Below, piece after piece: positions 18,103-38,749 of a stretch of DNA of 49,132 nt (position 1 is the stretch's first letter; each line of letters begins with the position of its first letter). The translations under genes and the position numbers were made by a program. The notes under the pieces were generated by a model that saw only the letters and a program-made list of their open reading frames with translations, was not told where the DNA came from and did not search any database. This DNA comes from an uncultured Clostridia bacterium (GTDB taxonomy: Bacteria; Bacillota; Clostridia; Oscillospirales; Ruminococcaceae), in contig CANRLY010000001.1 of the NCBI GenBank assembly GCA_947631585.1, positions 1 through 49,132 on the forward strand, in the 5' to 3' direction.

Positions 18103-18121
18103 TTAACACTCCTTGATATTA

Positions 18122-20955: not shown

Positions 20956-21014
20956 TTTTCAATATCGACCTTTCTTTATAAGTTTTATTTAAGGCTTAGC
21001 GCAAAGCAACAGCA

Positions 21015-21848: not shown

Positions 21849-21863
21849 ACTTCCTATTTCGGA

Positions 21864-22757: not shown

Positions 22758-22772
22758 CTGATCCCTCCGAAA

Positions 22773-23810
22773 TCAATTGAAGTCGTGGTTGTTCCTGAGC
22801 TTATTGTAAAGCTCGGAATCCTTTACCGCCGTCCAGGCGTTTTTGCTGAGCCCCAGCAGGTTCATTGACCTGAAAACGCTGTACTGCCTGACAGCCAGCC
22901 GATAGGTCTCAGGCATACTGCGGCGGAATTTTTCCATCATCAGGTCGCCCATACGTCTGCCCTTTGTCCGGTCTTTCTCCACAAGCAAAGCGGTGGTGAC
23001 AAAGCTGAGAAGCAGTCCCTGGGCTTTCATGCAGTAAAACCTCATGCCGGCGCTGTCCTCATCGAGACTGAGCTTGTCCATTTGGCGGATAAAGCAGTCA
23101 AGCACCTTTGCGGTATGGGAGATACGCCGCAGCTGATTTATATCGGAAACGCTCTGGGAGGAGTCCCCTATGCGGTAGTTATACAGGAAAATATCTATGG
23201 GGAAAACGCTTTGCGCATAGCAGCATGGGACAGTCGCATACAGGTGGTCCTCATAGAAAACGTGTTCCGGCAGCTGCATACAGTGGGCTTTGTAGAAGTC
23301 GGTGCGGTAGATGATACCGTGGAAAGTCAGGCTTCTGTCAAAGCTTTTCCAGCTGCTCATCACCTGTTCCATAGTATAGGAGACGCCAAACTCCTCCGGG
23401 AAAGACCTCCACTTTTTCACTTCGCCGGTGAGCTGGTCTCTTGTATAATGGTGAGCCAAAGCCACGTCTGCCCGGCAGTTTTCCAGCTGTTCTATCAGTC
23501 CGGGAAGATTCTCGGTCTCAACCCAGTCGTCGGCGTCCACGGCTTTAAGGAATTTCCCCTGAGCAGCGGAACACCCGGTATTCAGCGCACCGCCGTGACC
23601 TTTGTTCTCCTGGGATATCACCCTGAAAGAATCGGGGTACATCTGACAGTATTTTTCAGCCACCGACAGCGTAGAGTCCTCAGACCCGTCATTGACCGTT
23701 ATCACTTCTATTTTGTCCATCACCTCCTGGTTTATAAAAGAGGTAAGGCATTTGTCAAGAAATTTTTCGCAGTTGTAAGACGGCACGATAAAAGAAATTA
23801 TCTTTTCCAT
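22773..23810 (-). CDS. Family 2 glycosyltransferase
   Basis: FIVPSYNCEKFLDKCLTS..VNDGSEDST..DADDW: classic GT2 N-terminal fold with a DxD motif. Confidence 0.88.
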   Translation of the reverse strand: MEKIISFIVPSYNCEKFLDKCLTSFINQEVMDKIEVITVNDGSEDSTLSVAEKYCQMYPDSFRVISQENKGHGGALNTGCSAAQGKFLKAVDADDWVETENLPGLIEQLENCRADVALAHHYTRDQLTGEVKKWRSFPEEFGVSYTMEQVMSSWKSFDRSLTFHGIIYRTDFYKAHCMQLPEHVFYEDHLYATVPCCYAQSVFPIDIFLYNYRIGDSSQSVSDINQLRRISHTAKVLDCFIRQMDKLSLDEDSAGMRFYCMKAQGLLLSFVTTALLVEKDRTKGRRMGDLMMEKFRRSMPETYRLAVRQYSVFRSMNLLGLSKNAWTAVKDSELYNKLRNNHDFN

Positions 23811-24628
23811 CAGCTATCCTTTCGTTTGCTGCGGCTCAGTTTTCCGAGCCGGTTTTCAAAAATTCCCGCAAACATCGCCCTCAGCGCATTTGCAGCGGAG
23901 ATATCCTTTGAATAGAGCTTGTGTTTTGCAGCGGCGTAATATACGGCGTAGACCGCCGCAAGGGGAAGCCCCAGCACATATCTTGTAGTATTTCCCCGAT
24001 CTTTGAAGAATTTTTCGTTGTATCCGCCAAACCAGGTGGAGCTTGTCTGCTTCACCGAAGCTATCACCGACGGCACATAATATATCCTCAGTCCGGCTTT
24101 TTCACAGTCGCAGAGAAATTTAAGCTCCTCCTCTGCGCCGTTTCCCGTGCCTGCGCCCATAAGTTCGTCAAACCTCACCCCAGTGCGCATAAGAGAAGCT
24201 CTTTTGAAAGAGATCTGCCAGGAACTGACTTTCATGGTCAGGGGAAACCTGAGCCGCATTACCTTGTCTTTGAAAGAGGGCGGACGGTCAGCCATTTTGA
24301 AAATTATAACGTCCGCATCAGGGAGCTTGCGGTAAGCGGTGAGTATCTTCTGCCTGTAGTCCGATAGGAACACTTCGTCGTCGTCGCAAAGTATGCAAAT
24401 ATCCGCAGCGGACTTCTCCAGAGCCATGTTGCGGCTTTTGGTAAGCCCCCTCTGGGTGGTGTGGAAAATTTTTGCCAAGCCGTTTTCGGTGGGAAAGATC
24501 TCCATACCGCTCAGATCGCACTGGTTTATAACTATGGCGTTCCCGGTTATGCGGGTCTTTAGAACTATGTCACTGTTCTTCTGGTGCATACACGAAAGCA
24601 GCACGTCCAGTTTAAGAGTATTTTTCAT
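23810..24628 (-). CDS. GT-A fold glycosyltransferase
   Basis: Has a DxD motif (ILCDDDEVF) and a 1-nt overlap with the downstream GT2. It is the first gene after the consensus promoter at 24673-24701. Confidence 0.7.
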   Translation of the reverse strand: MKNTLKLDVLLSCMHQKNSDIVLKTRITGNAIVINQCDLSGMEIFPTENGLAKIFHTTQRGLTKSRNMALEKSAADICILCDDDEVFLSDYRQKILTAYRKLPDADVIIFKMADRPPSFKDKVMRLRFPLTMKVSSWQISFKRASLMRTGVRFDELMGAGTGNGAEEELKFLCDCEKAGLRIYYVPSVIASVKQTSSTWFGGYNEKFFKDRGNTTRYVLGLPLAAVYAVYYAAAKHKLYSKDISAANALRAMFAGIFENRLGKLSRSKRKDS

Positions 24629-24672
24629 ATAAATCCGCCGCCCATACGATCAGAACACAAATTTATTCTGTT

Positions 24673-24701
24673 ATTATAACACATTTAATTGCCCGTGTCA
24701 A
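24673..24701 (-). promoter_or_regulatory. Consensus sigma-A promoter of the glycan cluster
   Basis: The minus strand reads CTTGACACGGGCA..TGTTATAAT: TTGACA (24701-24696), 17-nt spacer, TATAAT (24678-24673). It lies ~45 nt upstream of the ATG at 24628. Confidence 0.65.
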
Positions 24702-24861
24702 GTAATTGGGAAATTAAGGGCGAAAACAGCCGATTGGGAGAATAGCGCAAAAAAAGTCCGCACAAGACCTTGTACGAACTGTAAAACATCAAATCAAACC
24801 TCAAAAACCGCCAAACTAAAGCAATAAAATCTGAACTTATAGAAGAATTTCCGGTTTTCAA

Positions 24862-24890
24862 AGAAAATCGCCGTCACCATCATGACGGCG
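24862..24890 (-). terminator. Second (distal) intrinsic terminator after the tRNA genes
   Basis: CGCCGTCA-CCATCA-TGACGGCG. On the minus strand it is followed by ATTTTCTTT. Confidence 0.65.
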
Positions 24891-25000
24891 AAGGAAATTT
24901 CTTAAATCCCAAACGCAAAGCGGTAATACCCAGATAGAAAATCCCCAACTAAGTAATAAAATCTGAACTAACAGAAGAATCGCTCGTTTTTCGTTTTTAA

Positions 25001-25032
25001 ACGAAAATCGTCGCCACAATATATGGCGACGA
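25001..25032 (-). terminator. Intrinsic terminator immediately downstream of tRNA-Glu
   Basis: TCGTCGCCA-(7 nt)-TGGCGACGA 9-bp stem. On the minus strand it is followed by TTTTCGTTT. Confidence 0.7.
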
Positions 25033-25062
25033 AGCGATTCTTCATGCTTACGAAGTAAGCAT

Positions 25063-25137
25063 TGGTGACCCCTACGGGAATTGAACCCATGATTACGCCG
25101 TGAAAGGGCGTCGTCTTAACCTCTTGACCAAGGGGCC
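25063..25137 (-). tRNA. tRNA-Glu (anticodon UUC), encoded CCA end
   Basis: The reverse complement is GGCCCCTTGGTCAAGAGGTTAAGACGACGCCCTTTCACGGCGTAATCATGGGTTCAATTCCCGTAGGGGTCACCA. It has a 7-bp acceptor stem, anticodon loop CTTTCAC and a GGTTCAATTCC T-arm. Confidence 0.93.
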
Positions 25138-25140
25138 GAA

Positions 25141-25469
25141 TATTTGCGGCAGACATACCGCCAAACGCTGACGCTTGCAAACTTCCCACTATAGGGAAAT
25201 GCCGACTTCCCACAAAGGGAAAACTGCCGGACTGCTAAACTATAGCTCTTGCTATGCCTTGTGTGGCACGTCTCCGGCTGCTAGCTACCGGCGTTTGCCC
25301 GACTTCCCACCATGGGAAAGTTACCGGACTGCTGAACCCTAGCTGCTGCAACGCCTTGTGCGATACGTCTCCGGCTGCTAGCTACTAGCATTTGTCCGAC
25401 TTCCCACCATGGGAAAGTTACCAGACTGCTGAATCCTAGCTGCTACAACACATTTACGGCACCAGCCGG
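25141..25469. repeat. 97-nt tandem repeat array (about 3.4 copies) filling the tRNA-Met/tRNA-Glu spacer
   Basis: Units start with CCGACTTCCCAC at 25202, 25299 and 25396 (period exactly 97). A partial unit lies at 25141-25201 and the last unit is truncated at the tRNA-Met 3' end. Every unit carries a TTCCC-loop-GGGAA hairpin. Confidence 0.85.
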
Positions 25470-25546
25470 TGGTAGCGGCAGTGGGACTTGAACCTACGAC
25501 CTACCGGGTATGAACCGGTTGCTCTAGCCAGCTGAGCTATGCCGCC
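25470..25546 (-). tRNA. tRNA-Met (anticodon CAU), elongator type, encoded CCA end
   Basis: The reverse complement is GGCGGCATAGCTCAGCTGGCTAGAGCAACCGGTTCATACCCGGTAGGTCGTAGGTTCAAGTCCCACTGCCGCTACCA. The anticodon loop is TTCATAC. It lacks the three consecutive G-C pairs of initiator anticodon stems. A lysidine tRNA-Ile2 cannot be fully excluded. Confidence 0.88.
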
Positions 25547-25578
25547 ATTTTAGTCGCTGCTTTTATAGCGACTTATTT

Positions 25579-25607
25579 ATTATACACTAAGTCTTTGAAC
25601 GAATCAA
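25579..25607 (-). promoter_or_regulatory. Sigma-A type promoter of the tRNA operon
   Basis: The minus strand reads TTGATT (25607-25602), a 17-nt spacer, then TATAAT (25584-25579). A short AGTCGCT/AGCGACT hairpin lies between it and the tRNA-Met 5' end. Confidence 0.6.
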
Positions 25608-25651
25608 TAACTTTTTGTAAACAAATCAACACTATCAGCGCCCAGCCGGAC

Positions 25652-26599
25652 TTATTCTTCCAGGTCTTTGTCGATAATGAACTTGGGTCTGGCTTTGGTC
25701 TCAAGATATATTTTGCCGATGTATTCGCCGATTATGCCTATGGCAAGCAGCTGCAAACCGCCTATTCCCCAGATGGAAATAACAATGGTCGCCCAGCCCT
25801 GAACGGTCTTTCCCAGAAAATAAGTTACCAGAAAGTATATCAGCATTGCGATGGATACCCCGAACAGAAGCACTCCCAGAAAGGTTATGAAGCGGATAGG
25901 TTTTACAGAAAGGCTGGTTATTCCCTCAAAGGCAAAAGAAAGCATTTTTTTCAGCGGATACTTGGATTCTCCGGCGGCACGCTTGCTGCGCTCGTATTCC
26001 ACAACGCCGGTCTTGAATCCCACCAGGTGAACTAACCCGCGCAGAAATAAATTTACTTCCTTGAACTCAGAAAGCGCCTCCAGCGCACGCTTGCTCATAA
26101 GACGGTAGTCGGCGTGGTTGTAAGTTATCTCAACACCCATTTTTTCAAGGACTTTGTAGTAACCCTGAGCGGTGAACTTTTTGAACTTGGTGTCAGAAGC
26201 ACGGCTGGAACGCACCCCGTAAACTATCTCGCAGCCCTCGTTTCGCTTTTCCAGAAAACCGTCTATGGCGTTAACGTCGTCCTGTAGGTCGGCGTCCATG
26301 GAAATGACGATATCCGCCCTGCCCTTGGCGGTCATAAGCCCGGCAAGCAGCGCATTCTGGTGACCTCTGTTGCGTGAAAGCTTTATTCCCACAAACAGAT
26401 CGTCTGAACTGTGAAGCGATTCGATAAGCTCCCACGTCTTGTCTTTAGAACCGTCGTCCACAAACATTACCCTGCTGGCGGACGAGATCTTTCCGCCGGC
26501 TATGAGCTGTTCTATCTTCTCTTTCAAAGCCTTTGAAGTTATGGGCAGTACAGCCTCCTCGTTGTAACAAGGTATCACTATATAAAGTATCTCAGCCAT
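25652..26599 (-). CDS. Polyprenyl-phosphate glycosyltransferase (GtrB/CsbB-like GT2)
   Basis: IVIPCYNEE, FVDDGSKDKT, SRNRGHQNALLAG, MDADLQDD, and two C-terminal TM helices ending in IGEYIGKIYLETKARPKFII: the hallmark GtrB architecture. The SD is AAAGGAG. Confidence 0.9.
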   Translation of the reverse strand: MAEILYIVIPCYNEEAVLPITSKALKEKIEQLIAGGKISSASRVMFVDDGSKDKTWELIESLHSSDDLFVGIKLSRNRGHQNALLAGLMTAKGRADIVISMDADLQDDVNAIDGFLEKRNEGCEIVYGVRSSRASDTKFKKFTAQGYYKVLEKMGVEITYNHADYRLMSKRALEALSEFKEVNLFLRGLVHLVGFKTGVVEYERSKRAAGESKYPLKKMLSFAFEGITSLSVKPIRFITFLGVLLFGVSIAMLIYFLVTYFLGKTVQGWATIVISIWGIGGLQLLAIGIIGEYIGKIYLETKARPKFIIDKDLEE

Positions 26600-30761: not shown

Positions 30762-30857
30762 GGTTAATTTTTCAAAGCAGACCCGACTCAGCTCCGGTTT
30801 TATTTTGGCGGAAAGTTAGCCGCCGCTAACGAATTTTAGATGAAAGGAACGTTTTTT

Positions 30858-31604
30858 ATGGGCATAAAGATAGCTCTTGCCGGAAACCCCAATGCCGGCA
30901 AGACCACGCTGTTCAATGCGCTGACCGGTTCAAACCAGTTTGTGGGAAACTGGCCCGGGGTAACGGTGGAGAAGAAAGAGGGAAAATTAAAGGGAGACAA
31001 GGACGTGGTCATCACCGACCTGCCGGGAATTTATTCCCTTTCGCCTTACACGCTGGAAGAAGTGGTGGCAAGAAATTACCTTATCACCGAAAGACCGGAC
31101 GCCATACTGAACATTATCGACGGCACAAATCTGGAGAGGAATCTTTATCTGACTACTCAGCTGGTGGAACTGGGCATACCGGTGGTGGCTGCAATAAACA
31201 TGATGGACGTGGTCAGGAAGAACGGCGACAAGATAGACACTCAGCAGTTGGCAAAAGAGCTTGGTTGTCAGGTGGCGGAGATATCCGCTTTGAAAGGTAC
31301 GGGAGTTGAGGAAGCCGCAATGATGGCGGTCAAAGCGGCAAAGTCCAGCGAACCTGCCGTTCCAAACCACAGCTTCTGCGGCTGCGTAGAGCACGCTCTT
31401 GCGCACATAGAAGAGGCATTCCTGCACGACATACCCGAAGAGCAGCAGAGATGGTACGCCATCAAGATATTTGAAAGAGACGAAAAGGTGCTGGAGACCC
31501 TGAAGCTGCCGGAAGAGGTAAAGTCTCACATAGAAAAGGACATCTGCGCCGCTGAAAAGGAAATGGACGACGACGCAGAGAGCATTATCACCAACGAAAG
31601 GTAA
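30858..31604 (+). CDS. feoB: Ferrous iron transporter FeoB, N-terminal G-domain/helical fragment (gene interrupted)
   Basis: G1 GNPNAGKTTLFN, G2-G3 DLPGIYSL, G4 NMMD. The start is set at the ATG at 30858. The frame ends at TAA 31602-31604 right after ..ESIITNER. Confidence 0.85.
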   Translation: MGIKIALAGNPNAGKTTLFNALTGSNQFVGNWPGVTVEKKEGKLKGDKDVVITDLPGIYSLSPYTLEEVVARNYLITERPDAILNIIDGTNLERNLYLTTQLVELGIPVVAAINMMDVVRKNGDKIDTQQLAKELGCQVAEISALKGTGVEEAAMMAVKAAKSSEPAVPNHSFCGCVEHALAHIEEAFLHDIPEEQQRWYAIKIFERDEKVLETLKLPEEVKSHIEKDICAAEKEMDDDAESIITNER

Positions 31605-31704
31605 GGACTGTTACCGCAAGAAGAACAGAGGCGCTCTGACCGTTTCGGACAAGATAGACAAGATAGTCACCAACAGGATACTGGCTCTGCCTATATTTGC
31701 GGCG

Positions 31705-32979
31705 GTGATGTTCATAGTTTACTTTATTTCGGTGACTACCGTGGGAACTCTTGTCACCGACTGGACAAACGATGTGTTCGCCGGACAGTGGCTCCAGGGC
31801 GGAGCGGAAAAGCTACTTGACAAGATAGGCTGCGCTCCCTGGCTGGAAGGTCTTATCGTTGACGGAATAATCGGCGGCGTGGGAGCTGTGCTGGGATTCG
31901 TTCCGCAGATACTCATACTGTTCATATTCTTAGCGTTCCTGGAGGGCTGCGGCTACATGGCGAGGGTCGCCTTTGTAATGGACAGGATATTCAGAAAATT
32001 CGGGCTTTCAGGAAAGTCTTTCATACCTATGCTCATAGGCACGGGCTGCGGCGTTCCGGGAATAATGGCTTCCCGTACCATCGAAAACGAAAGAGACCGC
32101 CGCATGACCATCATGACCACCACATTTATCCCCTGCGGAGCTAAACTCCCGATAATAGCCATGATAGCCGGAGCGTTTTTCGGCAAGGCGTGGTGGGTAG
32201 CTCCCAGCGCATACTTTGTGGGAGTGGCTGCAATAATAGTTTCAGGCATAATCCTGAAAAAGACTAAGATCTTCGCAGGCGATCCGGCGCCTTTCGTTAT
32301 GGAGCTGCCGGCTTATCATATGCCCACAGTGGGAAGTATCCTCCGTTCCATGTGGGAAAGAGGCTGGTCCTTCATCAAAAAAGCCGGAACAATAATCCTC
32401 CTGTCGTCTGTAGTGCTGTGGTTCTTGCAGGGATACGGCTTCACAGACGGAAAGTTCGGGGCGGCAGACCTTAACGATTCGCTGCTGGCGTCATTCGGAA
32501 GGCTGTTCGCATGGCTGTTTGCGCCTCTCGGCTGGGGCGACTGGAAGTTTGCCGTGGGCGCAGTCACCGGACTTATCGCAAAGGAAAACGTGGTGGCTAC
32601 ATTCGGAATACTCATCAGCGGAATAGAAGAAGCTGCGGAGGACGACCCCACTCTTCTGGCAGACCTGGGAACTTTGATAGCTCCTCTTGCGGCTTACTCG
32701 TTTTTGATATTTAACCTGCTGTGCGCTCCCTGCTTTGCGGCAATGGGCGCTATCAAGAGAGAAATGAACAACGGCAAGTGGACAGCTTTTGCCATCGGAT
32801 ACCAGTGCCTGTTCGCTTATGCGGTATCGCTCATAGTTTATCAGATAGGTTCGGCTTTCACCGGAAACCTGAACGTTATCGGGCTGGTCGTTGCGCTGAT
32901 ACTGCTGGCGTTCATGATCTATATGCTGGTAAGACCCTATAAGGAAAGCGACAGGCTGGGCAAAAACGTCAAAGTGTGA
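31705..32979 (+). CDS. feoB: Ferrous iron transporter FeoB, membrane-domain fragment (different frame; frame open from 31534)
   Basis: Upstream of the track start, the +1 frame already reads ..DCYRKKNRGALTVSDKIDKIVTNRILALPIFAAV, a FeoB gate/TM1 motif. This is followed by the polytopic FeoB core (GCGVPGIMASRTIE, IPCGAKLP). Confidence 0.85.
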   Translation: MMFIVYFISVTTVGTLVTDWTNDVFAGQWLQGGAEKLLDKIGCAPWLEGLIVDGIIGGVGAVLGFVPQILILFIFLAFLEGCGYMARVAFVMDRIFRKFGLSGKSFIPMLIGTGCGVPGIMASRTIENERDRRMTIMTTTFIPCGAKLPIIAMIAGAFFGKAWWVAPSAYFVGVAAIIVSGIILKKTKIFAGDPAPFVMELPAYHMPTVGSILRSMWERGWSFIKKAGTIILLSSVVLWFLQGYGFTDGKFGAADLNDSLLASFGRLFAWLFAPLGWGDWKFAVGAVTGLIAKENVVATFGILISGIEEAAEDDPTLLADLGTLIAPLAAYSFLIFNLLCAPCFAAMGAIKREMNNGKWTAFAIGYQCLFAYAVSLIVYQIGSAFTGNLNVIGLVVALILLAFMIYMLVRPYKESDRLGKNVKV

Positions 32980-33203: not shown

Positions 33204-33241
33204 AAAAGCCGTTCAGGTAAATAGCCTGGGCGGCTTTTTTT
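33204..33241 (+). terminator. Intrinsic terminator of the feo operon
   Basis: AAAAGCCGTTCAGG-(7 nt)-CCTGGGCGGCTTTT stem (with G-U pairs) followed by a T-run through 33241. Confidence 0.8.
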
Positions 33242-33263: not shown

Positions 33264-33292
33264 TTGATTAAATCGGGGATATGTGGTATGAT
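33264..33292 (+). promoter_or_regulatory. Sigma-A type promoter of the two-component/VTC operon
   Basis: TTGATT (33264-33269), a 17-nt spacer ending in TGG, then TATGAT (33287-33292). Confidence 0.55.
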
Positions 33293-33397
33293 TTATGTAA
33301 TAGGAACTTTTCGCAAATTTGTTCATAAAAAATTAACTTTCATCTTTAGGCTCATTTAAGGAAACGGCTGTATCATAACAGCAAAGGAGGGATAGCC

Positions 33398-34075
33398 GTG
33401 AGACTGCTGCTTGCAGAGGACGAAAAGGAACTTTCACGGGCGTTGACGGCTATTTTCCGGCACAACAGCTACTCGGTGGACGCAGTTTTCAACGGCAGGG
33501 AGGCTTACGAGTACCTGCAAAGCGGCGTTTACGACGGCGTGGTGCTGGATATCATGATGCCTGAGATGGACGGTCTTACTGTTCTTAAAAAAATAAGGGA
33601 ACAGGGAAACAAAGTGCCGGTGCTGCTGCTCACCGCAAAAGCGGAGGTGGACGACAGGGTCACCGGGCTTGACTGCGGAGCGGACGACTACCTGACCAAG
33701 CCTTTTGCCGCAAAGGAGCTTCTGGCGAGGATAAGAGCGATGACCAGGCGTTCGGGAGAAAAGCTCTCAGACCCGGTACTGAAAGCGGCTGACTTGTCTC
33801 TGGACAGGAGCAGCTGCGAGGTCTTTACTGAAAAAGGCAGGCTTCGGCTGGCAAACAAGGAGTTCCAGATGCTGGAAATGCTCATGGCTGAAGCAGGCAG
33901 GGTGATACCTGCGGAGCGGTTTCTTGAAAAGGTGTGGGAATTTGACAGCGAGCCGGAGCAGAACGTGGTCTGGGTGTACATTTCCAACCTGAGAAAGAAG
34001 CTGGCGGCTGTGGGTTCAGAGGCGCAGATAAAGGCTTACAGGAATCTGGGGTATTCGCTGGAGGAAAAAGCATGA
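33398..34075 (+). CDS. OmpR/PhoB-family response regulator
   Basis: GTG start with an AAAGGAGG SD. The receiver domain has LLAEDE, VVLDIMMPEMDG and LLLTAK. The C-terminus is winged-helix (VWVYISNLRKKL, YRNLGYSL). Confidence 0.93.
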   Translation: MRLLLAEDEKELSRALTAIFRHNSYSVDAVFNGREAYEYLQSGVYDGVVLDIMMPEMDGLTVLKKIREQGNKVPVLLLTAKAEVDDRVTGLDCGADDYLTKPFAAKELLARIRAMTRRSGEKLSDPVLKAADLSLDRSSCEVFTEKGRLRLANKEFQMLEMLMAEAGRVIPAERFLEKVWEFDSEPEQNVVWVYISNLRKKLAAVGSEAQIKAYRNLGYSLEEKA

Positions 34076-35337
34076 TCGCAAAGCTGAGACGCAAGTTCAT
34101 AGCGGCGGCGATAAGTTCGGTGGCGCTGGTGCTTACGGTGATAATGGCGGTGATAAATACGGCGAATTACCGCAGCGTGGTAAAAAATTCCGATCGCCTG
34201 ATAGAGCTGATACAGGAAAACGGCGGCGACTTTCCGGCAGTTCCGGCAGAGGAAGAAAAGCTGCCGGAGAGAGATGGATTGTTTGGCAGAGGAGGCCGTG
34301 ACAAGCGGTTCTCAGGGGGTGAGTTATCCCCGGAAATGCCTTTCCAGACAAGGTATTTCACCGTTTCTTTCAAAGATGGGGAGACCCCTGCCGCAAACGT
34401 GGGCAGGATAGCCGCCGTCACAGAGGAGCAGGCGGTAGATTATGCAGAGCAGCTGTTTTCTGAGGGAAAGACCTCCGGGTTTTACGGGGATTACCGTTAC
34501 GGTCTCAGCAGCGGCGGAGAAACTTCCATGTATGTGTTCGTGGACTGCCGCAAGGAGCTGGAGACTTTCCGGGCGTTTTTAAAAGCCAGCGTGCTGGTGA
34601 GCGCAGGGGGTCTTGCTCTGGTGGCTGGGCTGGTGACGCTTATTTCAGGTCTGGTGCTGAGACCGGCGGCGGAGAGCGCAGCCAAGCAGAAGCGTTTTAT
34701 CACCGACGCCAGCCACGAGCTGAAAACTCCCCTTACCATTATAGAAGCCAACACGGAAGTGCTGGAGATGGAAAGCGGAGAGAACGAGTGGACGGAAAGC
34801 ATACGCAATCAGGTGAAAAGGCTGACTTCCATGACGGAAAAGCTGGTGTTTCTTTCAAGAATGGACGAGGAAAAGAAGCCTCAGAAAGAAAGGCTGGACT
34901 TTTCCTCACTGGCGCAGGAGACCGCCGACAGCTTCCGGGCGGTGGCTGAGTCAAAGGGGAAAAAGCTGGAGACCCATATAGAAAACGGGCTTTACGTCCG
35001 GGGGGACAGTCAGATGCTGATACAGCTCATTTCCCTGCTGCTTGACAACAGCGTTAAGTATTCGGACGAGGGGGGAAGCATTTCTCTCAGCCTGAAAAGC
35101 TCCGGCAGGAATCGGATACTCACGGTGGAAAACACCGTGGAGAGCATACGGCAGGGGAAGCTTGACGAGTTCTTTGAACGGTTCTACCGGGAGGACAGCT
35201 CCAGAAACTCCGCTGCCGGCGGCTGCGGCATAGGGCTTTCGGCGGCAAGGGAGATAGTTTCCGCCCACAAGGGGAAAATAACAGCTTTCAGCGATGACGG
35301 CAGGTCTGTGCGCATTACGGCTGTTCTGCCTGCGTGA
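34072..35337 (+). CDS. Sensor histidine kinase
   Basis: ATGA overlap with the regulator gene. Two TM segments flank a ~130-aa extracytoplasmic region. H-box FITDASHELKTPLT, N-box LLDNSVKYS, and G-boxes in the C-terminus. Confidence 0.92.
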   Translation: MIAKLRRKFIAAAISSVALVLTVIMAVINTANYRSVVKNSDRLIELIQENGGDFPAVPAEEEKLPERDGLFGRGGRDKRFSGGELSPEMPFQTRYFTVSFKDGETPAANVGRIAAVTEEQAVDYAEQLFSEGKTSGFYGDYRYGLSSGGETSMYVFVDCRKELETFRAFLKASVLVSAGGLALVAGLVTLISGLVLRPAAESAAKQKRFITDASHELKTPLTIIEANTEVLEMESGENEWTESIRNQVKRLTSMTEKLVFLSRMDEEKKPQKERLDFSSLAQETADSFRAVAESKGKKLETHIENGLYVRGDSQMLIQLISLLLDNSVKYSDEGGSISLSLKSSGRNRILTVENTVESIRQGKLDEFFERFYREDSSRNSAAGGCGIGLSAAREIVSAHKGKITAFSDDGRSVRITAVLPA

Positions 35338-35362
35338 AAGTTTTCAGGAAAAGAGGATAGAA

Positions 35363-36082
35363 ATGGTCAGTCAGAATGTTTTCAAAAGATATGAGCTGAA
35401 ATATCTCATATCCGAAGAGCAAAAGCGGCGGCTGCTGAAAAACGTCGGCGGCGGACTGGAGCTTGACAGCTACGGCAGGTCGCTGATATGCAGCGTTTAC
35501 TACGACACTCCCGACGACCGCCTGGTGAGGACTTCCATAGAAAGACCGGTATACAAGGAAAAGCTCCGGCTGAGGAGCTACGGTGTGGCAAAGCCTGACA
35601 GCATGGTGTTTGCAGAGCTTAAAAAGAAGTATCTGTCGGTGGTGTACAAGCGGCGGATAAGCGCAAAGCTCAGCCAGGCGGAACAGTATCTGGCAGGAGG
35701 TCAGAAGCCGGAAGATTCCCAGATAGCAAGGGAGATAGACAGGTTCATGGAGTTTTACCGGGAACTTGCGCCGGCTATGTACATTTCTTATGAGCGTGAA
35801 GCGTTCTTTTCGGAGGTTACACCCGATCTGAGGGTCACTTTTGACGACAACATTCTCTGGCGGACGGAAGAACTTTCCCTGAGCGTAAAGCCTTACGGCA
35901 CGCCGGTGCTTCCGCCGGGAAAGGTACTTATGGAGATCAAGACGGGAACGGCTATCCCTCTGTGGCTGGTAAAGCAGCTTTCGCAGATGGGAATATATAA
36001 AACGTCCTTTTCAAAATACGGCAGCGCTTACACGGCAAAGGCGGCAGCCCATCATTCAGGAGGTAAATGTTATGCTGGATAA
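35363..36082 (+). CDS. VTC-domain (triphosphate tunnel / polyphosphate-polymerase-like) protein
   Basis: The start is set at the ATG at 35363 with an AAGAGGA SD. The motifs FKRYELKYLI, YYDTPD, ERPVYKEKLRLRSYG, AELKKKY and LMEIKT are the alternating basic/acidic beta-strands typical of bacterial VTC/CYTH-like proteins. Confidence 0.8.
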   Translation: MVSQNVFKRYELKYLISEEQKRRLLKNVGGGLELDSYGRSLICSVYYDTPDDRLVRTSIERPVYKEKLRLRSYGVAKPDSMVFAELKKKYLSVVYKRRISAKLSQAEQYLAGGQKPEDSQIAREIDRFMEFYRELAPAMYISYEREAFFSEVTPDLRVTFDDNILWRTEELSLSVKPYGTPVLPPGKVLMEIKTGTAIPLWLVKQLSQMGIYKTSFSKYGSAYTAKAAAHHSGGKCYAG

Positions 36083-36689
36083 ATTGTTCAGGGGGATATT
36101 TGACAGCGACCTGATAACGGTCATATCGGTAAAGGATTTTCTGCTCTGCATGGGGGTAGCCCTTGCAATAGGAGTATTCTTTGCGGCGGTGTACACTTAC
36201 AAAAACCACTACACCAAGAGTTTTCTGCTGACGCTGGCGGTACTGCCGGCGGTGGTGAGCGTTGTTATCATGATGGTAAACGGCAACGTAGGCGCAGGAG
36301 TTGCGGTGGCAGGTGCGTTCAGTCTGGTAAGGTTCCGTTCGGTGCCGGGCACTGCCAAGGAGATAGCGGCTATCTTCCTTGCCATGGGAACAGGACTTAT
36401 CATCGGTATGGGTTACCTGGGGTATGCGTCGCTGTTTGCGCTGATAATGGGAGCGGCTGTGCTTATTTATCAGAAACTTGGGGAAACTATGAAAAGAAAG
36501 CCGGACAGCGGCAAGGTGCTGAGGGTGACTATCCCGGAAGATCTGAACTACACGGACGTATTTGACGATCTGTTTGAAAAATACACTTTGCAGCACGAGC
36601 TTTCGGTGGTAAAGACCACAAACATGGGAAGTATGTTCAAGCTGACCTATAACATTATTCTGAGGAAAAGGAATTTATTGACGAGATAA
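36072..36689 (+). CDS. DUF4956-like membrane protein, 3' end apparently frameshifted
   Basis: It overlaps the VTC gene by 11 nt. It has TM helices and the block VNGNVGAGVAVAGAFSLVRFRSVPGTAKE. The frame stops at 36687-36689, but the neighbouring frame continues as EEKEFIDEIRCRNGNLEVSISGQEVNIYEL to 36754. Confidence 0.75.
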   Translation: MLDKLFRGIFDSDLITVISVKDFLLCMGVALAIGVFFAAVYTYKNHYTKSFLLTLAVLPAVVSVVIMMVNGNVGAGVAVAGAFSLVRFRSVPGTAKEIAAIFLAMGTGLIIGMGYLGYASLFALIMGAAVLIYQKLGETMKRKPDSGKVLRVTIPEDLNYTDVFDDLFEKYTLQHELSVVKTTNMGSMFKLTYNIILRKRNLLTR

Positions 36690-36743
36690 GGTGCAGAAAC
36701 GGCAATCTGGAGGTCAGCATATCCGGTCAGGAGGTAAATATTT

Positions 36744-38651
36744 ATGAGCTATAAAAGCTCCAGAGCGGCTGCGTTTTTAGCAGCGGCGGCGATGGTCCTG
36801 GGGCTTTGCGGCTGCGAAGATGAGGGCGGTCGGGAGGACCTGTCCGGCAGCGCAGCGGCAGAGCAGAGCGTTTTGGGAAGCGGAGCAGCGGAGGAAGCCA
36901 AGCCGTCAGGCAGGCTGGAAGAGCTGCTCCGCACTGATGAGATGTTCACTGAGCGGGACTCAGACGGCAGTTATTCAGAAGCAGGAGCGGTAAGCATAAG
37001 TTTAAGCGGAAGTTCGGCTTCTGCGGACAGCGACAGTGTGGAGATCTCAGGCGGAAAGGTAAAGATATCCCAAGAGGGGGTATATCTCATAAGCGGAACG
37101 CTGTCTGACGGGCAGATAATAGTTGATGCAGACGACAGCGCAAAAGTTCAGCTGGCGCTTTGCGGCTGCGAAATAACTTGCAGCGGCAGTGCGGCGATAT
37201 ATGTTAAGCAGGCTGACAAGGTGTTTGTTACGCTTAGCGATGGGACGGAGAATGTTCTCACCGAAACAGGCAGCTTCACAGCGGACGGCGACACCAACGT
37301 AGACGGAGTTATCTTTTCAAAAGACGACCTTACCATAAACGGCGGAGGTTCTCTTGAGATAAACACGGAAAACGGTCACGGCGCAGTTTCAAAGAACGAC
37401 CTTAAAGTCACCGGCGGAGAACTGACGGTGAACTGTTCGGGACACGGGCTTTCAGGCAAGGACAGCGTTCGCATAGGCGGCGGAAGCATTTCGGTAAATT
37501 CCGGCAAAGACGGTATCCACTCTGAAAACGCCGAGGACACCCAGCAGGGATTTATTTACATCGGCGGCGGCGACCTGGCGATAGACTGCGGCGGCGACGG
37601 TCTGGACGCATCTTCGCAGGTGCTGACTGAGGGCGGAAAAGCCGTTATCACCAGCGGTTCAGGCAGCGCAAACGGAGAAGCTCACACAGAAAACATGATG
37701 GGCGGAAGATATCCCATGGGCGCAGAAGAGCAGGTCTCAGGCGAAGAAGATGAGAGCTGCAAGGGAATAAAAGGCGATCTGGGCGTTTTTGCGGCAGGCG
37801 GAGAGCTTGTAATTGACAGCAAGGACGACGGGATACATTCAAACGCCGGAGTTTCCGTATCTGAGGGCAAGCTGGAGATAAGTTCAGGAGACGACGGCAT
37901 ACACGGCGACGGTCAGGTACAGATAAGCGGCGGAAGCGTTACCATAAAGGAGAGTTACGAGGGCATAGAGGGACAGAGCATAGACATCTCCGGCGGAGAA
38001 ATATCGGTCAAGGCAAGCGATGACGGATTAAATTCCTCCGGCGGCAATGACGGCAGCGGTTACGGCGGCAGAGGAGGAGATATGTTTGCGGAAAACCCGG
38101 ACTGCATCATAAGCATTTCCGGCGGAAAGACAGTGGTCGATTCCTCGGGAGACGGGGTAGATTCAAACGGTTCTATAAGCGTTACCGGCGGCGAAGTATA
38201 TGTAGCAGGTCCTGAAAATGACGGCAACGGTGCGCTTGACTACGCAGGGGAAGCGTTTATCAGCGGCGGAAGATTCATAGCGGCAGGGTCGTCCGGAATG
38301 GCGCAGAATTTCGGAAGTTCCTCCACTCAGGGGGCGGCTCTGGTGAACATTTCCGGTTCAGGAAACATTATTTTGAAAGACGCTAAGGGGGAAGTTCTGA
38401 TAGAATTTGATCCCGGAAAGTCATACGGCTGCGCAGTAGTAAGCTGTCCGGAGATGGTGCAGGGCGGAAGTTACGTTTTAGAAGCAGGAGGTCAGTCGAC
38501 TGAATTTGTTCTTGACCAGCTCATATACGGTCAAGGCGGAGGAATGGGCGGAATGGGAGGCCGTCCCGGCGGCGGAGGAAAGCTCCCCGGCGGCGGACAG
38601 TTCCAAGGCGGCGGACAATTCCCGGACAGAGAAAACAGGAAGCTTATGTGA
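36744..38651 (+). CDS. Probable lipoprotein with parallel beta-helix repeats (Cthe_2159-like carbohydrate-binding family) and Gly-rich tail
   Basis: Signal peptide with an LGLCGC lipobox region. About ten degenerate repeats are present (GKDGIHSEN, GGDGLDASS, KDDGIHSNA, GDDGIHGDG, SDDGLNSSG, SGDGVDSNG ...). The C-terminus reads GGGMGGMGGRPGGGGKLPGGGQFQGGGQF. Confidence 0.75.
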   Translation: MSYKSSRAAAFLAAAAMVLGLCGCEDEGGREDLSGSAAAEQSVLGSGAAEEAKPSGRLEELLRTDEMFTERDSDGSYSEAGAVSISLSGSSASADSDSVEISGGKVKISQEGVYLISGTLSDGQIIVDADDSAKVQLALCGCEITCSGSAAIYVKQADKVFVTLSDGTENVLTETGSFTADGDTNVDGVIFSKDDLTINGGGSLEINTENGHGAVSKNDLKVTGGELTVNCSGHGLSGKDSVRIGGGSISVNSGKDGIHSENAEDTQQGFIYIGGGDLAIDCGGDGLDASSQVLTEGGKAVITSGSGSANGEAHTENMMGGRYPMGAEEQVSGEEDESCKGIKGDLGVFAAGGELVIDSKDDGIHSNAGVSVSEGKLEISSGDDGIHGDGQVQISGGSVTIKESYEGIEGQSIDISGGEISVKASDDGLNSSGGNDGSGYGGRGGDMFAENPDCIISISGGKTVVDSSGDGVDSNGSISVTGGEVYVAGPENDGNGALDYAGEAFISGGRFIAAGSSGMAQNFGSSSTQGAALVNISGSGNIILKDAKGEVLIEFDPGKSYGCAVVSCPEMVQGGSYVLEAGGQSTEFVLDQLIYGQGGGMGGMGGRPGGGGKLPGGGQFQGGGQFPDRENRKLM

Positions 38652-38656
38652 ATTTC

Positions 38657-38692
38657 AAAGCAGGCGTTCTTTACAGGGCGTCTGCTTTTTTC
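38657..38692 (+). terminator. Intrinsic terminator after the beta-helix lipoprotein gene
   Basis: CAAAGCAGGCG-(12 nt)-CGTCTGCTTT followed by TTTTCC. Confidence 0.7.
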
Positions 38693-38749
38693 CGCCCGCA
38701 GGAGCGGGCGTGCGAAATCGTTTTCTTGCGGAAAAGCGGCAAAAAGAAG

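What the first reader, a model, noticed from the sequence alone, without database searches (positions are those of the whole stretch)
33398..38651. Two-component system coupled to a bacterial VTC-like module (VTC domain + DUF4956-like membrane protein + beta-helix lipoprotein)
Five genes run from one promoter to one terminator. The RR/HK pair has a 4-nt overlap. It is followed by a soluble VTC/triphosphate-tunnel protein, a multi-TM protein overlapping it by 11 nt, and a lipoprotein with about ten G-D-D-G-I-H-S-type beta-helix repeats and a Gly-rich tail. In eukaryotes the VTC complex makes polyphosphate in a tunnel domain and threads it through its own TM subunits. Bacteria are known to use PPK1/PPK2 instead. 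The arrangement fits a signal-regulated synthase/translocase that hands an anionic polymer to a surface beta-helix binder. To my knowledge this function has not been demonstrated experimentally in bacteria.
Basis: partly seen in the sequence, partly recalled or inferred. Interest (0 to 1): 0.7.

Follow-up and report, generated by a model that had tools for sequence, protein, structure and literature searches.

The report
Bacterial VTC-like polyphosphate module, TCS-controlled
A two-component system controls a widely conserved three-gene cassette of gut Clostridia: an enzyme closely resembling the yeast polyphosphate polymerase, an MgtC-like membrane protein and a surface beta-helix lipoprotein; its function has never been tested, and this copy carries a frameshift in the membrane gene.

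Summary
The five genes are present as described, and every domain call holds: OmpR-type regulator, histidine kinase, VTC tunnel enzyme, DUF4956 membrane protein and Cthe_2159 beta-helix lipoprotein, ending at a strong terminator.

- **Linkage.** In 80 other species, VTC is followed by DUF4956 in 80/80 loci and by Cthe_2159 in 63/68 evaluable loci. The two-component system is adjacent in about 60%.
- **Regulation (new).** A PhoB-style direct repeat (TTTAAG-N5-TTTAAGG) lies upstream of the regulator gene and of VTC. It changes together with the regulator clade.
- **Enzyme.** The VTC protein is nearest to yeast Vtc4 in fold. It keeps every Vtc4 catalytic residue that could be mapped.

Three corrections:
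1. DUF4956 is unrelated to the eukaryotic VTC membrane subunits. It is an MgtC-like five-helix protein with an ACT-like cytoplasmic domain.
2. In this window DUF4956 is truncated by a 13-nt deletion that two near-identical contigs lack.
3. A sister version, with a secreted CotH kinase, is already noted in the literature but is uncharacterised biochemically.

Regulated synthesis and export of polyphosphate is the best reading, but it is unproven (about 0.4).

The parts
33204..33238 (+). Intrinsic terminator of the upstream feoB unit; marks the 5' boundary of the operon
   Evidence: 15-bp stem followed by a T-run
33264..33292 (+). Sigma-70-like promoter match (TTGATT-17-TATGAT with an extended TG)
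   Evidence: Consensus scan, 9/12 matches. The number of such sites in the region is no greater than in shuffles, so this is weak evidence.
33345..33361 (+). Direct repeat TTTAGG-N5-TTTAAGG; putative binding site of the operon's own OmpR/PhoB-type regulator
   Evidence: Only match in the window. The same box lies upstream of RR genes and, independently, 55-130 nt upstream of VTC in 23/78 other loci against 0.23 expected. A looser form is present in 49/78.
33371..33376 (+). Candidate -10 hexamer TATCAT, 9 nt downstream of the repeat (pho-box-like geometry)
   Evidence: Read from the sequence. The same box-to-(-10) arrangement is seen across the loci. This is an inference.
33398..34075 (+). Response regulator, OmpR/PhoB family (225 aa)
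   Evidence: PF00072 (E = 8e-31) and PF00486 (E = 9e-21). It reaches no NCBIfam equivalog cut-off.
34072..35337 (+). Sensor histidine kinase (421 aa): two TM helices flanking a ~135-aa extracytoplasmic loop; no HAMP domain was detected by Pfam
   Evidence: HisKA and HATPase_c. 98% identical to the intact copy in L082. The sensor domain has no Pfam match.
35363..36082 (+). Soluble VTC-type triphosphate-tunnel enzyme (239 aa)
   Evidence: PF09359, 129 bits. AF2 model pLDDT 90; best PDB matches are Vtc4 entries such as 3g3r (E = 3e-12). Residues equivalent to Vtc4 K200, R264, R266, K281, K294, Y359, R361 and R373 are invariant.
36072..36689 (+). DUF4956 / MgtC-like membrane protein, truncated allele (205 aa instead of 231)
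   Evidence: PF16316. A 13-nt deletion lies between 36662 and 36663 relative to L081 and L082. The intact homologue models as 5 TM helices plus a beta-alpha-beta-beta-alpha-beta domain. MgtC matches are sub-threshold in 7/9 members.
36662..36754 (+). Out-of-frame remnant of the DUF4956 C-terminus (EEKEFIDEIRCRNGNLEVSISGQEVNIYEL*)
   Evidence: Translation of the shifted frame. It contains the clade-invariant RCRNGNLE motif. In intact relatives this reading frame overlaps the lipoprotein start by 11 nt.
36744..38651 (+). Cthe_2159-family right-handed beta-helix lipoprotein (635 aa), with a low-complexity linker and a Gly-rich C-terminal tail
   Evidence: PF14262, 295 bits, in two stretches. PDB 4peu at E = 7e-41. 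A lipobox is present in 57/65 orthologues.
38657..38694 (+). Intrinsic terminator closing the operon
   Evidence: 14-bp hairpin, -21.9 kcal/mol, z = -3.5, followed by U6

Best explanation
This is a self-contained, signal-regulated envelope module.

- **Control (inferred from cis-elements).** A dedicated OmpR/PhoB-type two-component system senses an unknown extracytoplasmic signal. It activates its own promoter, and with it the whole operon, through a direct-repeat box placed where the -35 element would be.
- **Enzyme (homology shown, chemistry inferred).** The cytoplasmic VTC-type tunnel enzyme uses a nucleoside triphosphate to build or extend an inorganic polyphosphate chain, as yeast Vtc4 does.
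- **Membrane partner (inferred).** It works in a fixed-ratio complex with the translationally coupled DUF4956 protein. This is an N-out/C-in five-helix MgtC-like protein. Its invariant GAxSxxRFR motif and ACT-like domain face the cytoplasm. It anchors and gates the enzyme and passes the product to the outer face of the membrane.
- **Surface partner (inferred).** There the co-translated Ca2+-dependent beta-helix lipoprotein binds or organises the anionic polymer on the cell surface.
- **Sister systems.** These replace the lipoprotein with a secreted CotH kinase inside exopolysaccharide loci. That suggests the common job of VTC + DUF4956 is to supply a phosphoanhydride polymer to extracytoplasmic partners.
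- **This window.** The 13-nt deletion in DUF4956 removes a clade-invariant part of the ACT-like domain. If the deletion is real, this copy is probably inactive.
For: - **Domain identities** are confirmed.
- **VTC fold.** The AF2 model (pLDDT 90) matches Vtc4 structures at E = 3e-12 to 1e-10 and TM about 0.7. Other tunnel enzymes score about 1e-7.
- **Catalytic residues.** Vtc4 K200, R264, R266, K281, K294, Y359, R361 and R373 map to K13, R69, R71, K87, K96, Y143, R145 and R157. These residues are invariant across clades down to 26% identity, together with E191/K193 and S217/K218.
- **Obligate pairing.** DUF4956 lies immediately downstream of VTC in 80/80 species loci and in 6/6 distant plasmid or chromid loci, usually with overlapping reading frames.
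- **Third gene.** It is extracytoplasmic in both variants. Cthe_2159 is present in 63/68 loci, with a median gap of 11 nt and a lipobox in 57/65. CotH takes its place in the other variant.
- **No other conserved neighbour** exists.
- **Regulatory link.** The two-component system is adjacent in 47-49/80 loci. The box lies upstream of VTC in 23/78 loci against 0.23 expected, including loci with no adjacent two-component system. A second regulator clade carries TTCAAT-N5-TTCAAT at both promoters.
- **DUF4956 topology.** The model, together with the positive-inside rule applied by eye, places the RFR motif and the ACT-like domain in the cytoplasm.
- **Lipoprotein family.** It is reported to bind cellulose and the polyanion polygalacturonate, with Ca2+ required for ligand recognition (as cited in 10.1101/401869 and PMC8746771).
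- **Genetics in a sister system.** In S. intermedius, deleting the DUF4956 and CotH homologues changes the Pel-dependent surface phenotype (PMC12345266).
Against: - No biochemical data exist for any bacterial VTC protein. Tunnel enzymes also include triphosphatases, cyclases and RNA triphosphatases, and sequence alone cannot separate a polymerase from a hydrolase.
- Bacterial VTC carries a Glu (E11) where Vtc4 has Thr198. That residue is typical of the classical ExExK tunnel enzymes.
- DUF4956 is not homologous to the Vtc1/Vtc4 channel helices. It has no significant structural match to any transporter. Its nearest family, MgtC, is known as a regulator, not a channel (PMC12345266).
- Only two basic residues are invariant in the membrane part.
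- The deletion of the S. intermedius VTC homologue had no phenotype (PMC12345266).
- The C-terminal catalytic residues of Vtc4 could not be aligned by sequence.
- There is no evidence that a Cthe_2159 protein binds polyphosphate.
Confidence: 0.4

Rival explanations
1. Membrane-tethered cytoplasmic phosphate or energy device, with nothing exported. The VTC enzyme makes or hydrolyses polyphosphate or triphosphate at the inner face of the membrane. The MgtC-like protein only anchors and regulates it through a ligand bound by the ACT-like domain, as MgtC regulates ATP synthase and PhoR. The lipoprotein is a separate plant-fibre-binding adhesin that shares the regulon.
For: - DUF4956 gives recurrent sub-threshold MgtC matches (7/9 members, best 2e-5) and has an ACT-like domain.
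- The MgtC family is described as regulatory (PMC12345266).
- DUF4956 has no channel-like structural match.
- The Cthe_2159 type protein binds cellulose and pectin (10.1101/401869).
- A CE2 acetyl-xylan-esterase-like gene follows the operon.
Against: - The third gene is an extracytoplasmic protein in both module variants and is often translationally coupled to DUF4956. That is hard to explain if nothing crosses the membrane.
- The CE2 neighbour is not conserved.
Confidence: 0.25
2. Glycan-modification module. VTC + DUF4956 deliver a phosphoryl donor to the outside, and the extracytoplasmic partner acts on a cell-surface or dietary polysaccharide: CotH as a kinase in sister systems, the lyase-like beta-helix here. 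The end product is then a phosphorylated or remodelled glycan rather than free surface polyphosphate.
For: - Distant VTC-DUF4956 pairs sit with CotH inside glycosyltransferase and exopolysaccharide clusters and next to Gram-positive pel operons (10.1101/768473).
- Mutants alter Pel level and aggregation (PMC12345266).
- One locus replaces Cthe_2159 with a GT2-GtrA protein plus a NAGPA phosphodiester glycosidase.
- Cthe_2159 resembles PL9 pectate lyases (10.1101/401869).
Against: - The Cthe_2159-type loci have no conserved glycosyltransferase neighbours.
- No catalytic activity is reported for the Cthe_2159 family.
- No kinase is present in this variant.
Confidence: 0.2
3. In this genome the cassette is a decaying or inactive copy. 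The 13-nt deletion in DUF4956 is real and abolishes function, so the operon here does nothing, whatever the family does elsewhere.
For: - The deletion is absent from two near-identical contigs from independent samples.
- It removes a motif that is invariant in the clade, including Paenibacillus and Enterococcus.
- feoB, just upstream, is also frameshifted.
Against: - The remaining C-terminal codons are still intact in the shifted frame.
- The four other genes are intact; HK is 98% identical to its relative over full length.
- Two frameshifts within 5 kb could equally be assembly errors.
- The TM core with the RFR motif is retained.
Confidence: 0.45

Closest known systems
Eukaryotic VTC complex (Vtc4 catalytic subunit with Vtc1/2/3; PDB 3g3q, 3g3r, 7ytj, 8i6v)
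   Same: - The tunnel domain is the same Pfam family (PF09359) and the best structural match.
- All mappable catalytic Lys/Arg/Tyr residues are conserved.
- The enzyme is genetically coupled to a membrane protein and to a compartment that is topologically outside the cytoplasm.
   Different: - There is no SPX domain, so inositol-pyrophosphate control is not expected; control is transcriptional, through a two-component system.
- The enzyme is a free 239-aa soluble protein, not fused to three TM helices.
- The membrane partner is an unrelated five-helix MgtC-like protein with an ACT-like domain.
- A Glu sits at the position of Vtc4 T198.
- A dedicated extracytoplasmic partner protein is present.
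- Activity is untested.
CotH-linked VTC-DUF4956 clusters (S. intermedius SIR_1592-1594 next to pel; C. perfringens NELoc-2; Pseudobutyrivibrio pNP95; Planococcus plasmid)
   Same: - The same VTC + DUF4956 core pair is present, with the same invariant tunnel residues and the same GAxSxxRFR motif.
- The third gene encodes a secreted protein.
   Different: - Identity to the window proteins is only 26-29% for VTC and 19-23% for DUF4956 against the intact relative.
- The partner is a CotH kinase instead of a beta-helix lipoprotein.
- These clusters are embedded in exopolysaccharide loci, with no dedicated two-component system seen in the two loci inspected here.
- The ACT-like domain lacks the RCRNGNLE motif.
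MgtC/SapB family (PF02308)
   Same: Five TM helices followed by a cytoplasmic ACT-like beta-alpha-beta-beta-alpha-beta domain. Seven of nine diverse DUF4956 proteins give MgtC matches (best E = 2e-5).
   Different: The scores lie well below those of the same proteins against DUF4956 (best E = 5e-22), and whether any reaches the MgtC cut-off was not shown. The signature motif is different (GAxSxxRFR). The pairing with a VTC enzyme is obligate. MgtC itself is known as a regulator of ATP synthase and PhoR.
Cthe_2159 of Clostridium thermocellum (PDB 4peu/4phb)
   Same: Same family: a right-handed beta-helix with repeated Asp-Gly ladders. Members are reported to bind cellulose and polygalacturonate, with Ca2+ needed for ligand recognition.
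   Different: Here the domain is duplicated, lipid-anchored through a long acidic linker, and carries a Gly-rich tail. It is translationally coupled to DUF4956. The ligand is unknown.
PhoB/PhoR-type class II activation (pho box)
   Same: An OmpR-family regulator; two direct repeats 11 bp apart lying about 10 nt upstream of the -10 and replacing the -35 (pho-box geometry recalled from general knowledge); and an autoregulated operon.
   Different: The half-site is different (TTTAAG). No NCBIfam equivalog cut-off is reached. This is a dedicated local regulon. The signal is unknown.
PPK1 / PPK2 polyphosphate kinases
   Same: They would make the same product, if the inference is right.
   Different: No sequence or fold relationship. 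The PPKs are not coupled to a membrane protein or to a surface partner.

Membership tests
VTC domain / Vtc4-type tunnel enzymes (PF09359) | Match to the Pfam VTC model above the gathering score | tested here: met
   129.3 bits against a cut-off of 23; residues 31-246 of the ORF cover profile positions 1-231 of 235
VTC domain / Vtc4-type tunnel enzymes (PF09359) | Closed beta-barrel tunnel fold closer to Vtc4 than to other triphosphate tunnel enzymes | tested here: met
   AF2 pLDDT 90. Foldseek gives 3g3r at E = 3e-12 (TMq 0.75), and the top 13 hits are all Vtc2/3/4. CYTH and ygiF-type enzymes start at E = 2e-7.
VTC domain / Vtc4-type tunnel enzymes (PF09359) | Catalytic residues of Vtc4: K200, R264, R266, K281, K294, Y359, R361, R373 | tested here: met
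   The profile-to-PDB alignment maps them to K13, R69, R71, K87, K96, Y143, R145 and R157. All are invariant in 26 close and 10 distant homologues. Which Vtc4 residues are catalytic was taken from memory of Hothorn et al. 2009.
VTC domain / Vtc4-type tunnel enzymes (PF09359) | C-terminal metal and phosphate ligands (Vtc4 E426, S457, K458) | tested here: inconclusive
   The HMMER alignment stops at Vtc4 residue 386, and a profile of the C-terminal part found nothing in the PDB. Invariant E191/K193 and S217/K218 exist and are plausible equivalents.
VTC domain / Vtc4-type tunnel enzymes (PF09359) | Polyphosphate polymerase activity | not testable with these tools
   Needs an enzyme assay
Eukaryotic VTC complex (as a system) | N-terminal SPX regulatory domain | tested here: not met
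   The protein is a single-domain 239-aa protein; Pfam reports only VTC
Eukaryotic VTC complex (as a system) | Three-helix Vtc1-type transmembrane domains forming the channel | tested here: not met
   - The VTC protein shows no hydrophobic TM stretch by eye, and its model is all barrel and helices.
- The partner models as five TM helices plus an ACT-like domain.
- The 50 best Foldseek hits listed for the partner (all with E above 0.04) include no VTC-complex chain.
DUF4956 (PF16316) | Match above the gathering score | tested here: met
   54.2 bits against a cut-off of 30.6
DUF4956 (PF16316) | Full-length protein with the C-terminal domain | tested here: not met
   The window copy is 205 aa against 231 aa in homologues. 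A 13-nt deletion shifts the frame before the invariant EK..ID.[LI]RCRNGNLE segment.
MgtC/SapB family (PF02308) | Match to the Pfam MgtC model | tested here: inconclusive
   7 of 9 diverse DUF4956 proteins match at E <= 10, best 2.2e-5. The two Clostridia proteins scanned singly (P0121, P0145) gave no MgtC hit.
MgtC/SapB family (PF02308) | Five TM helices followed by a cytoplasmic ACT-like domain | tested here: met
   The AF2 model of the intact relative P0121 (pLDDT 70) shows helices 20-42, 49-68, 73-90, 95-113 and 116-139, then beta-alpha-beta-beta-alpha-beta. The weak best Foldseek hits are ACT, NIL and PII-like domains.
Cthe_2159 beta-helix family (PF14262) | Pfam match and homology to the solved type structure | tested here: met
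   295.5 bits in two stretches; 4peu at E = 7e-41
Cthe_2159 beta-helix family (PF14262) | Ca2+-dependent binding of a polyanionic or cellulosic ligand | not testable with these tools
   Known only for the type protein, as cited in 10.1101/401869 and PMC8746771
OmpR/PhoB-type two-component system | Receiver plus winged-helix regulator, paired with a HisKA/HATPase_c kinase | tested here: met
   No NCBIfam equivalog cut-off is reached, so this is not PhoBR, WalRK, VanRS or another named system.
OmpR/PhoB-type two-component system | Cognate direct-repeat operator at the target promoters | tested here: met
   The box is at 33345-33361. It is enriched more than 100-fold upstream of VTC in other species and co-varies with the regulator clade. 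Binding itself was not tested.
PPK1 / PPK2 | PPK catalytic domains | tested here: not met
   No PPK family appears among the Pfam or NCBIfam hits of any of the five proteins

The most novel reading that the evidence does not exclude
Gut and rumen Clostridia, and more widely Bacillota and some Actinomycetota, possess a third bacterial route to polyphosphate, unrelated to PPK1 and PPK2. A Vtc4-like tunnel polymerase is docked on an MgtC-like membrane protein that exports the chain to the cell surface. There, dedicated partners (a Ca2+ beta-helix lipoprotein, or secreted CotH kinases) hold it or use it as an extracytoplasmic phosphoryl and energy source. The whole system is switched on by its own two-component system.
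Probability: 0.3. Interest if true: 0.85.

Novelty: new variant of a known kind. Interest (0 to 1): 0.6.

Why it matters
- **A gap in the field.** Polyphosphate synthesis in bacteria is textbook PPK1/PPK2, and a 2023 review of VTC distribution considers eukaryotes only (PMC10657179).
- **What is shown here.** A VTC-type enzyme with an intact catalytic tunnel is widespread. The scan matched at least 600 stretches in the species-representative genome collection, and thousands of protein clusters exist.
- **What that would mean.** If the enzyme makes and exports polyphosphate, this would be a new biosynthetic route. It would also be a source of cell-surface or luminal polyphosphate, a molecule with reported effects on host cells.
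- **Other open questions it could touch.** It could explain how secreted CotH kinases are supplied with a phosphoryl donor. It could also give the enigmatic MgtC superfamily a concrete molecular role.
- **Experimental entry point.** The predicted operator and dedicated two-component system allow inducible expression and reporter fusions.

Tried and rejected
1. **Exact-sequence look-up of the window's VTC protein.** It is not on record. The source organism is therefore only inferred to be an uncultured Clostridia, probably Lachnospiraceae, from its nearest relatives.
2. **Sequence search of DUF4956 against the PDB.** Nothing was found.
3. **Foldseek of the DUF4956 model.** No hit had E below 0.04, and only the ACT-like domain is recognisable. 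The idea that DUF4956 equals Vtc1-type helices was rejected.
4. **Mapping Vtc4 E426/S457/K458 by a C-terminal sub-profile.** There was no hit, so the question is left open.
5. **Looking for natural VTC-DUF4956 or DUF4956-Cthe_2159 fusions as evidence of interaction.** A few long proteins exist. They join partial domains and look like deletion or assembly chimeras, so they were not used.
6. **Searching for further conserved neighbours** (phosphatases, Pst, PPX, glycosyltransferases) in 80 loci. None was found.
7. **Phosphate-metabolism genes in the window.** None was seen among the roughly 30 larger ORFs scanned. The context is ordinary chromosomal: parA, serS, tatD, a wall-polysaccharide ABC pathway, feoB, a MATE transporter, a Clp ATPase.
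8. **Equating the two-component system with PhoBR, WalRK or VanRS.** This was rejected because no NCBIfam cut-off is reached.
9. **One literature query** timed out.

Full report
**1. The observation**

The region holds five co-directional ORFs:
- RR 33398-34075
- HK 34072-35337, with a 4-nt overlap with the RR gene
- a VTC ORF 35294-36082
- a membrane-protein ORF 36072-36689, overlapping VTC by 11 nt
- a 635-aa ORF 36744-38651

The last protein is homologous to the solved Cthe_2159 structure (4peu, E = 7e-41). It has a signal peptide with a lipobox, six strict x-D-D-G-[ILV]-x-S motifs and a Gly-rich tail.

The unit is bracketed by terminators. One lies at 33204-33238. The other is a 14-bp hairpin with a U6 tract at 38657-38694 (-21.9 kcal/mol, z = -3.5). 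The next gene, a CE2/GDSL esterase, has its own promoter-like site.

Homologues and the RBS indicate that VTC starts at ATG 35363, giving a 239-aa protein.

**2.

All 120 listed DUF4956 homologues are about 231 aa long, whereas the window ORF is 205 aa. Two near-identical contigs from independent samples were aligned with the window (L081 and L082; their proteins are 98-99% identical). The alignment shows a 13-nt deletion in the window between 36662 and 36663.

- The deletion shifts the frame just before the segment EK..ID.[LI]RCRNGNLE. This segment is invariant in the clade and is conserved as far as Paenibacillus and Enterococcus.
- The lost C-terminus still reads intact in the other frame (36662-36754).
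- In intact relatives that frame overlaps the lipoprotein start by 11 nt.
- feoB, just upstream, is also split by a frameshift near 31600.

So the lesions may be real, or they may be assembly errors. This cannot be decided here.

**3. Conservation of the module**

The best 80 were analysed; almost all come from Clostridia (Lachnospiraceae, Oscillospiraceae, Ruminococcaceae and relatives).

| Feature | Count |
|---|---|
| DUF4956 directly after VTC | 80/80 |
| Cthe_2159 homologue next | 63/68 evaluable |
| TCS upstream, same strand | 29 |
| TCS upstream, divergent | 14 |
| TCS downstream, same strand | 4 |
| TCS partly seen at a contig end | 2 |

- VTC and DUF4956 typically overlap by 4-11 nt.
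- The median gap between DUF4956 and Cthe_2159 is 11 nt, and 57/65 Cthe_2159 orthologues have a lipobox.
- Clustering all flanking ORFs found no other recurrent neighbour.
- More distant examples show the same logic. Paenibacillus has TCS + VTC + DUF4956 + Cthe_2159. Acetoanaerobium and an E. faecalis plasmid have TCS + VTC + DUF4956. Nonomuraea has VTC + DUF4956.
- A Pseudobutyrivibrio plasmid and a Planococcus plasmid carry VTC + DUF4956 with a CotH kinase inside glycosyltransferase clusters.

The invariant core is therefore VTC + DUF4956. The third component, always extracytoplasmic, is exchangeable.

**4. Regulation (new)**

Upstream regions of the RR genes share a direct repeat, TTTAAG-N5-TTTAAGG, about 9-10 nt upstream of a -10-like hexamer.

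- In the window it is TTTAGGCTCATTTAAGG at 33345-33361, followed by TATCAT at 33371-33376.
- This is the geometry of PhoB-type class II promoters, as recalled from general knowledge.
- As an independent test, the strict motif was counted 40-140 nt upstream of VTC. It is present in 23/78 loci against 0.23 expected (binomial P about 1e-39), including loci with no adjacent two-component system.
- A looser form is present in 49/78 loci.
- Loci whose regulator belongs to a second clade (44-49% identity) carry TTCAAT-N5-TTCAAT instead, both upstream of RR and upstream of VTC.

This co-variation argues that the regulator controls both its own gene and the VTC genes. In the window only 25 nt separate HK from VTC and no internal box is present. 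All five genes therefore depend on the single promoter region upstream of RR.

The kinase has an extracytoplasmic loop of about 135 aa with no recognisable domain, so the signal is unknown. No NCBIfam equivalog cut-off is reached, so this is not PhoBR, WalRK or VanRS.

**5. The enzyme**

- The AF2 model is confident (pLDDT 90).
- Its 13 best PDB matches are all yeast Vtc4, Vtc2 or Vtc3 tunnel domains (E = 3e-12 to 8e-10, TM about 0.7). Other triphosphate tunnel enzymes follow at 2e-7 or weaker.
- A profile-to-PDB alignment maps Vtc4 residues onto the bacterial protein as follows:

| Vtc4 | R196 | K200 | R264 | R266 | K281 | K294 | Y359 | R361 | R373 |
|---|---|---|---|---|---|---|---|---|---|
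| Window VTC | R9 | K13 | R69 | R71 | K87 | K96 | Y143 | R145 | R157 |

- These residues are invariant among close homologues.
- They are also invariant among ten proteins down to 26% identity, including CotH-linked and actinomycete versions. Further invariants are E11, E85, T159, D161, E191, K193, S217 and K218, in the alternate-residue pattern of a tunnel interior.
- The C-terminal Vtc4 ligands could not be mapped by sequence.
- Bacterial proteins carry Glu where Vtc4 has T198, a feature of classical ExExK tunnel enzymes.

The active site is therefore intact and under strong constraint. Whether it polymerises or hydrolyses cannot be read from the sequence.

**6. The membrane partner**

The intact relative P0121 models with moderate confidence (pLDDT 70) as five TM helices followed by a beta-alpha-beta-beta-alpha-beta domain.

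- Foldseek finds no significant match. The weak best hits are ACT, NIL and PII-like regulatory domains, and no VTC-complex chain is among the 50 hits listed.
- Seven of nine diverse DUF4956 proteins give sub-threshold matches to Pfam MgtC (best 2e-5). The authors of PMC12345266 reached the same MgtC-plus-ACT reading independently.
- Across all clades the invariant residues are Y47, the motif G81-A82-x-S84-x-x-R87-F88-R89, G108 and G112.
- The positive-inside rule, applied by eye to the loops, gives an N-out/C-in topology. This places the RFR motif and the ACT-like domain in the cytoplasm, where the VTC enzyme is.
- The family has about 4,600 representatives at 50% clustering among 1.84 billion proteins.

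DUF4956 is thus not a homologue of the eukaryotic VTC channel helices. A channel role is possible, for example through oligomers with a ring of Arg residues, but it rests on inference only.

**7. What is known**

- NCBI names these enzymes 'polyphosphate polymerase domain-containing protein'.
- The cotH-PPP-DUF4956 trio next to Gram-positive pel operons was noted in 2019 (10.1101/768473).
- VTC-domain, CotH and 222-226-aa cytoplasmic-membrane genes annotated as tubulin/FtsZ GTPases (plausibly DUF4956) are listed in C. perfringens NELoc-2 (PMC2879425).
- In S. intermedius, deleting the DUF4956 and CotH homologues reduced Pel-dependent aggregation and altered Pel levels. Deleting the VTC homologue had no phenotype. 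Polyphosphate was not measured (PMC12345266).
- A 2023 review maps VTC across eukaryotes only and treats bacteria as PPK users (PMC10657179).
- No paper in the searched library describes the two-component/Cthe_2159 version, its operator, or any enzymology.

**8. Verdict**

The finding is real, non-random and conserved.

The best-supported mechanism is a two-component-regulated vectorial module:
- a cytoplasmic Vtc4-like enzyme,
- coupled to an MgtC-like membrane protein,
- serving a surface beta-helix lipoprotein.

Polyphosphate synthesis and export is the most economical reading (confidence about 0.4).

The rivals are:
- a non-exporting, membrane-tethered phosphate device (0.25);
- a glycan-modification role (0.2);
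- for this copy only, inactivation by the deletion (0.45; this question is independent of the other three).

The system is a bacterial variant of the VTC principle, not a member of the eukaryotic VTC complex. It lacks the SPX domain and Vtc1-type helices, and it differs in regulation and partners.

Noticed in passing
window 30840-32979: feoB is split into two ORFs in different frames: the G domain plus FeoB_Cyto at 30840-31604, and Gate plus FeoB_C from 31705. The frameshift lies near 31600, between ...SIITNER* and KDCYRKKNRG... in the next frame. With the DUF4956 deletion, this makes two frameshifts within 5 kb. The cause is either pseudogenisation or assembly error.
   Followed up: partly
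L014, L015, L035, L053 (intergenic region between the divergent RR gene and VTC): A third group of loci, with a divergent two-component system whose HK is only 31-32% identical, shows TGTGA-N6-TGTGA repeats on the RR side. The TTTAGG-type box is still kept on the VTC side. This suggests that the RR gene and the VTC operon are controlled differently in that clade.
   Followed up: no
L044:11460-13639: In one species the Cthe_2159 gene is replaced, directly after DUF4956, by a GT2-GtrA glycosyltransferase and a NAGPA phosphodiester glycosidase. This hints at a link between the module and phospho-glycan chemistry.
   Followed up: no
literature (10.1101/401869): Anaerobic gut fungi are reported to have gained both Cthe_2159 and CotH domains. 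For Cthe_2159, transfer from rumen Clostridiales is shown. These are the two alternative extracytoplasmic partners of the bacterial VTC-DUF4956 pair.
   Followed up: no
window 16987-26599, minus strand: A cell-wall or exopolysaccharide cluster of the ABC-transporter type: UDP-galactopyranose mutase, three GT2 glycosyltransferases, an ABC-2 permease and an ATPase. It lies 7-16 kb upstream of the operon. It is not conserved next to the module in other species.
   Followed up: partly
window 11414-14701 and 4286-7222: Two large proteins with carbohydrate-related domains: a 1095-aa DUF5696 protein with a FIVAR domain, and a 978-aa solute-binding protein with a weak CBM35 match. A long antisense ORF (4301-6808, 835 aa) overlaps the latter and is probably spurious.
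   Followed up: no
P0259, P0295, P0339, P0354 (database proteins): Rare proteins join partial VTC + DUF4956 domains, or partial DUF4956 + Cthe_2159 domains. They look like deletion or assembly chimeras, similar in kind to the lesion in this window. The junctions of this tightly packed operon may therefore be prone to deletions.
   Followed up: partly
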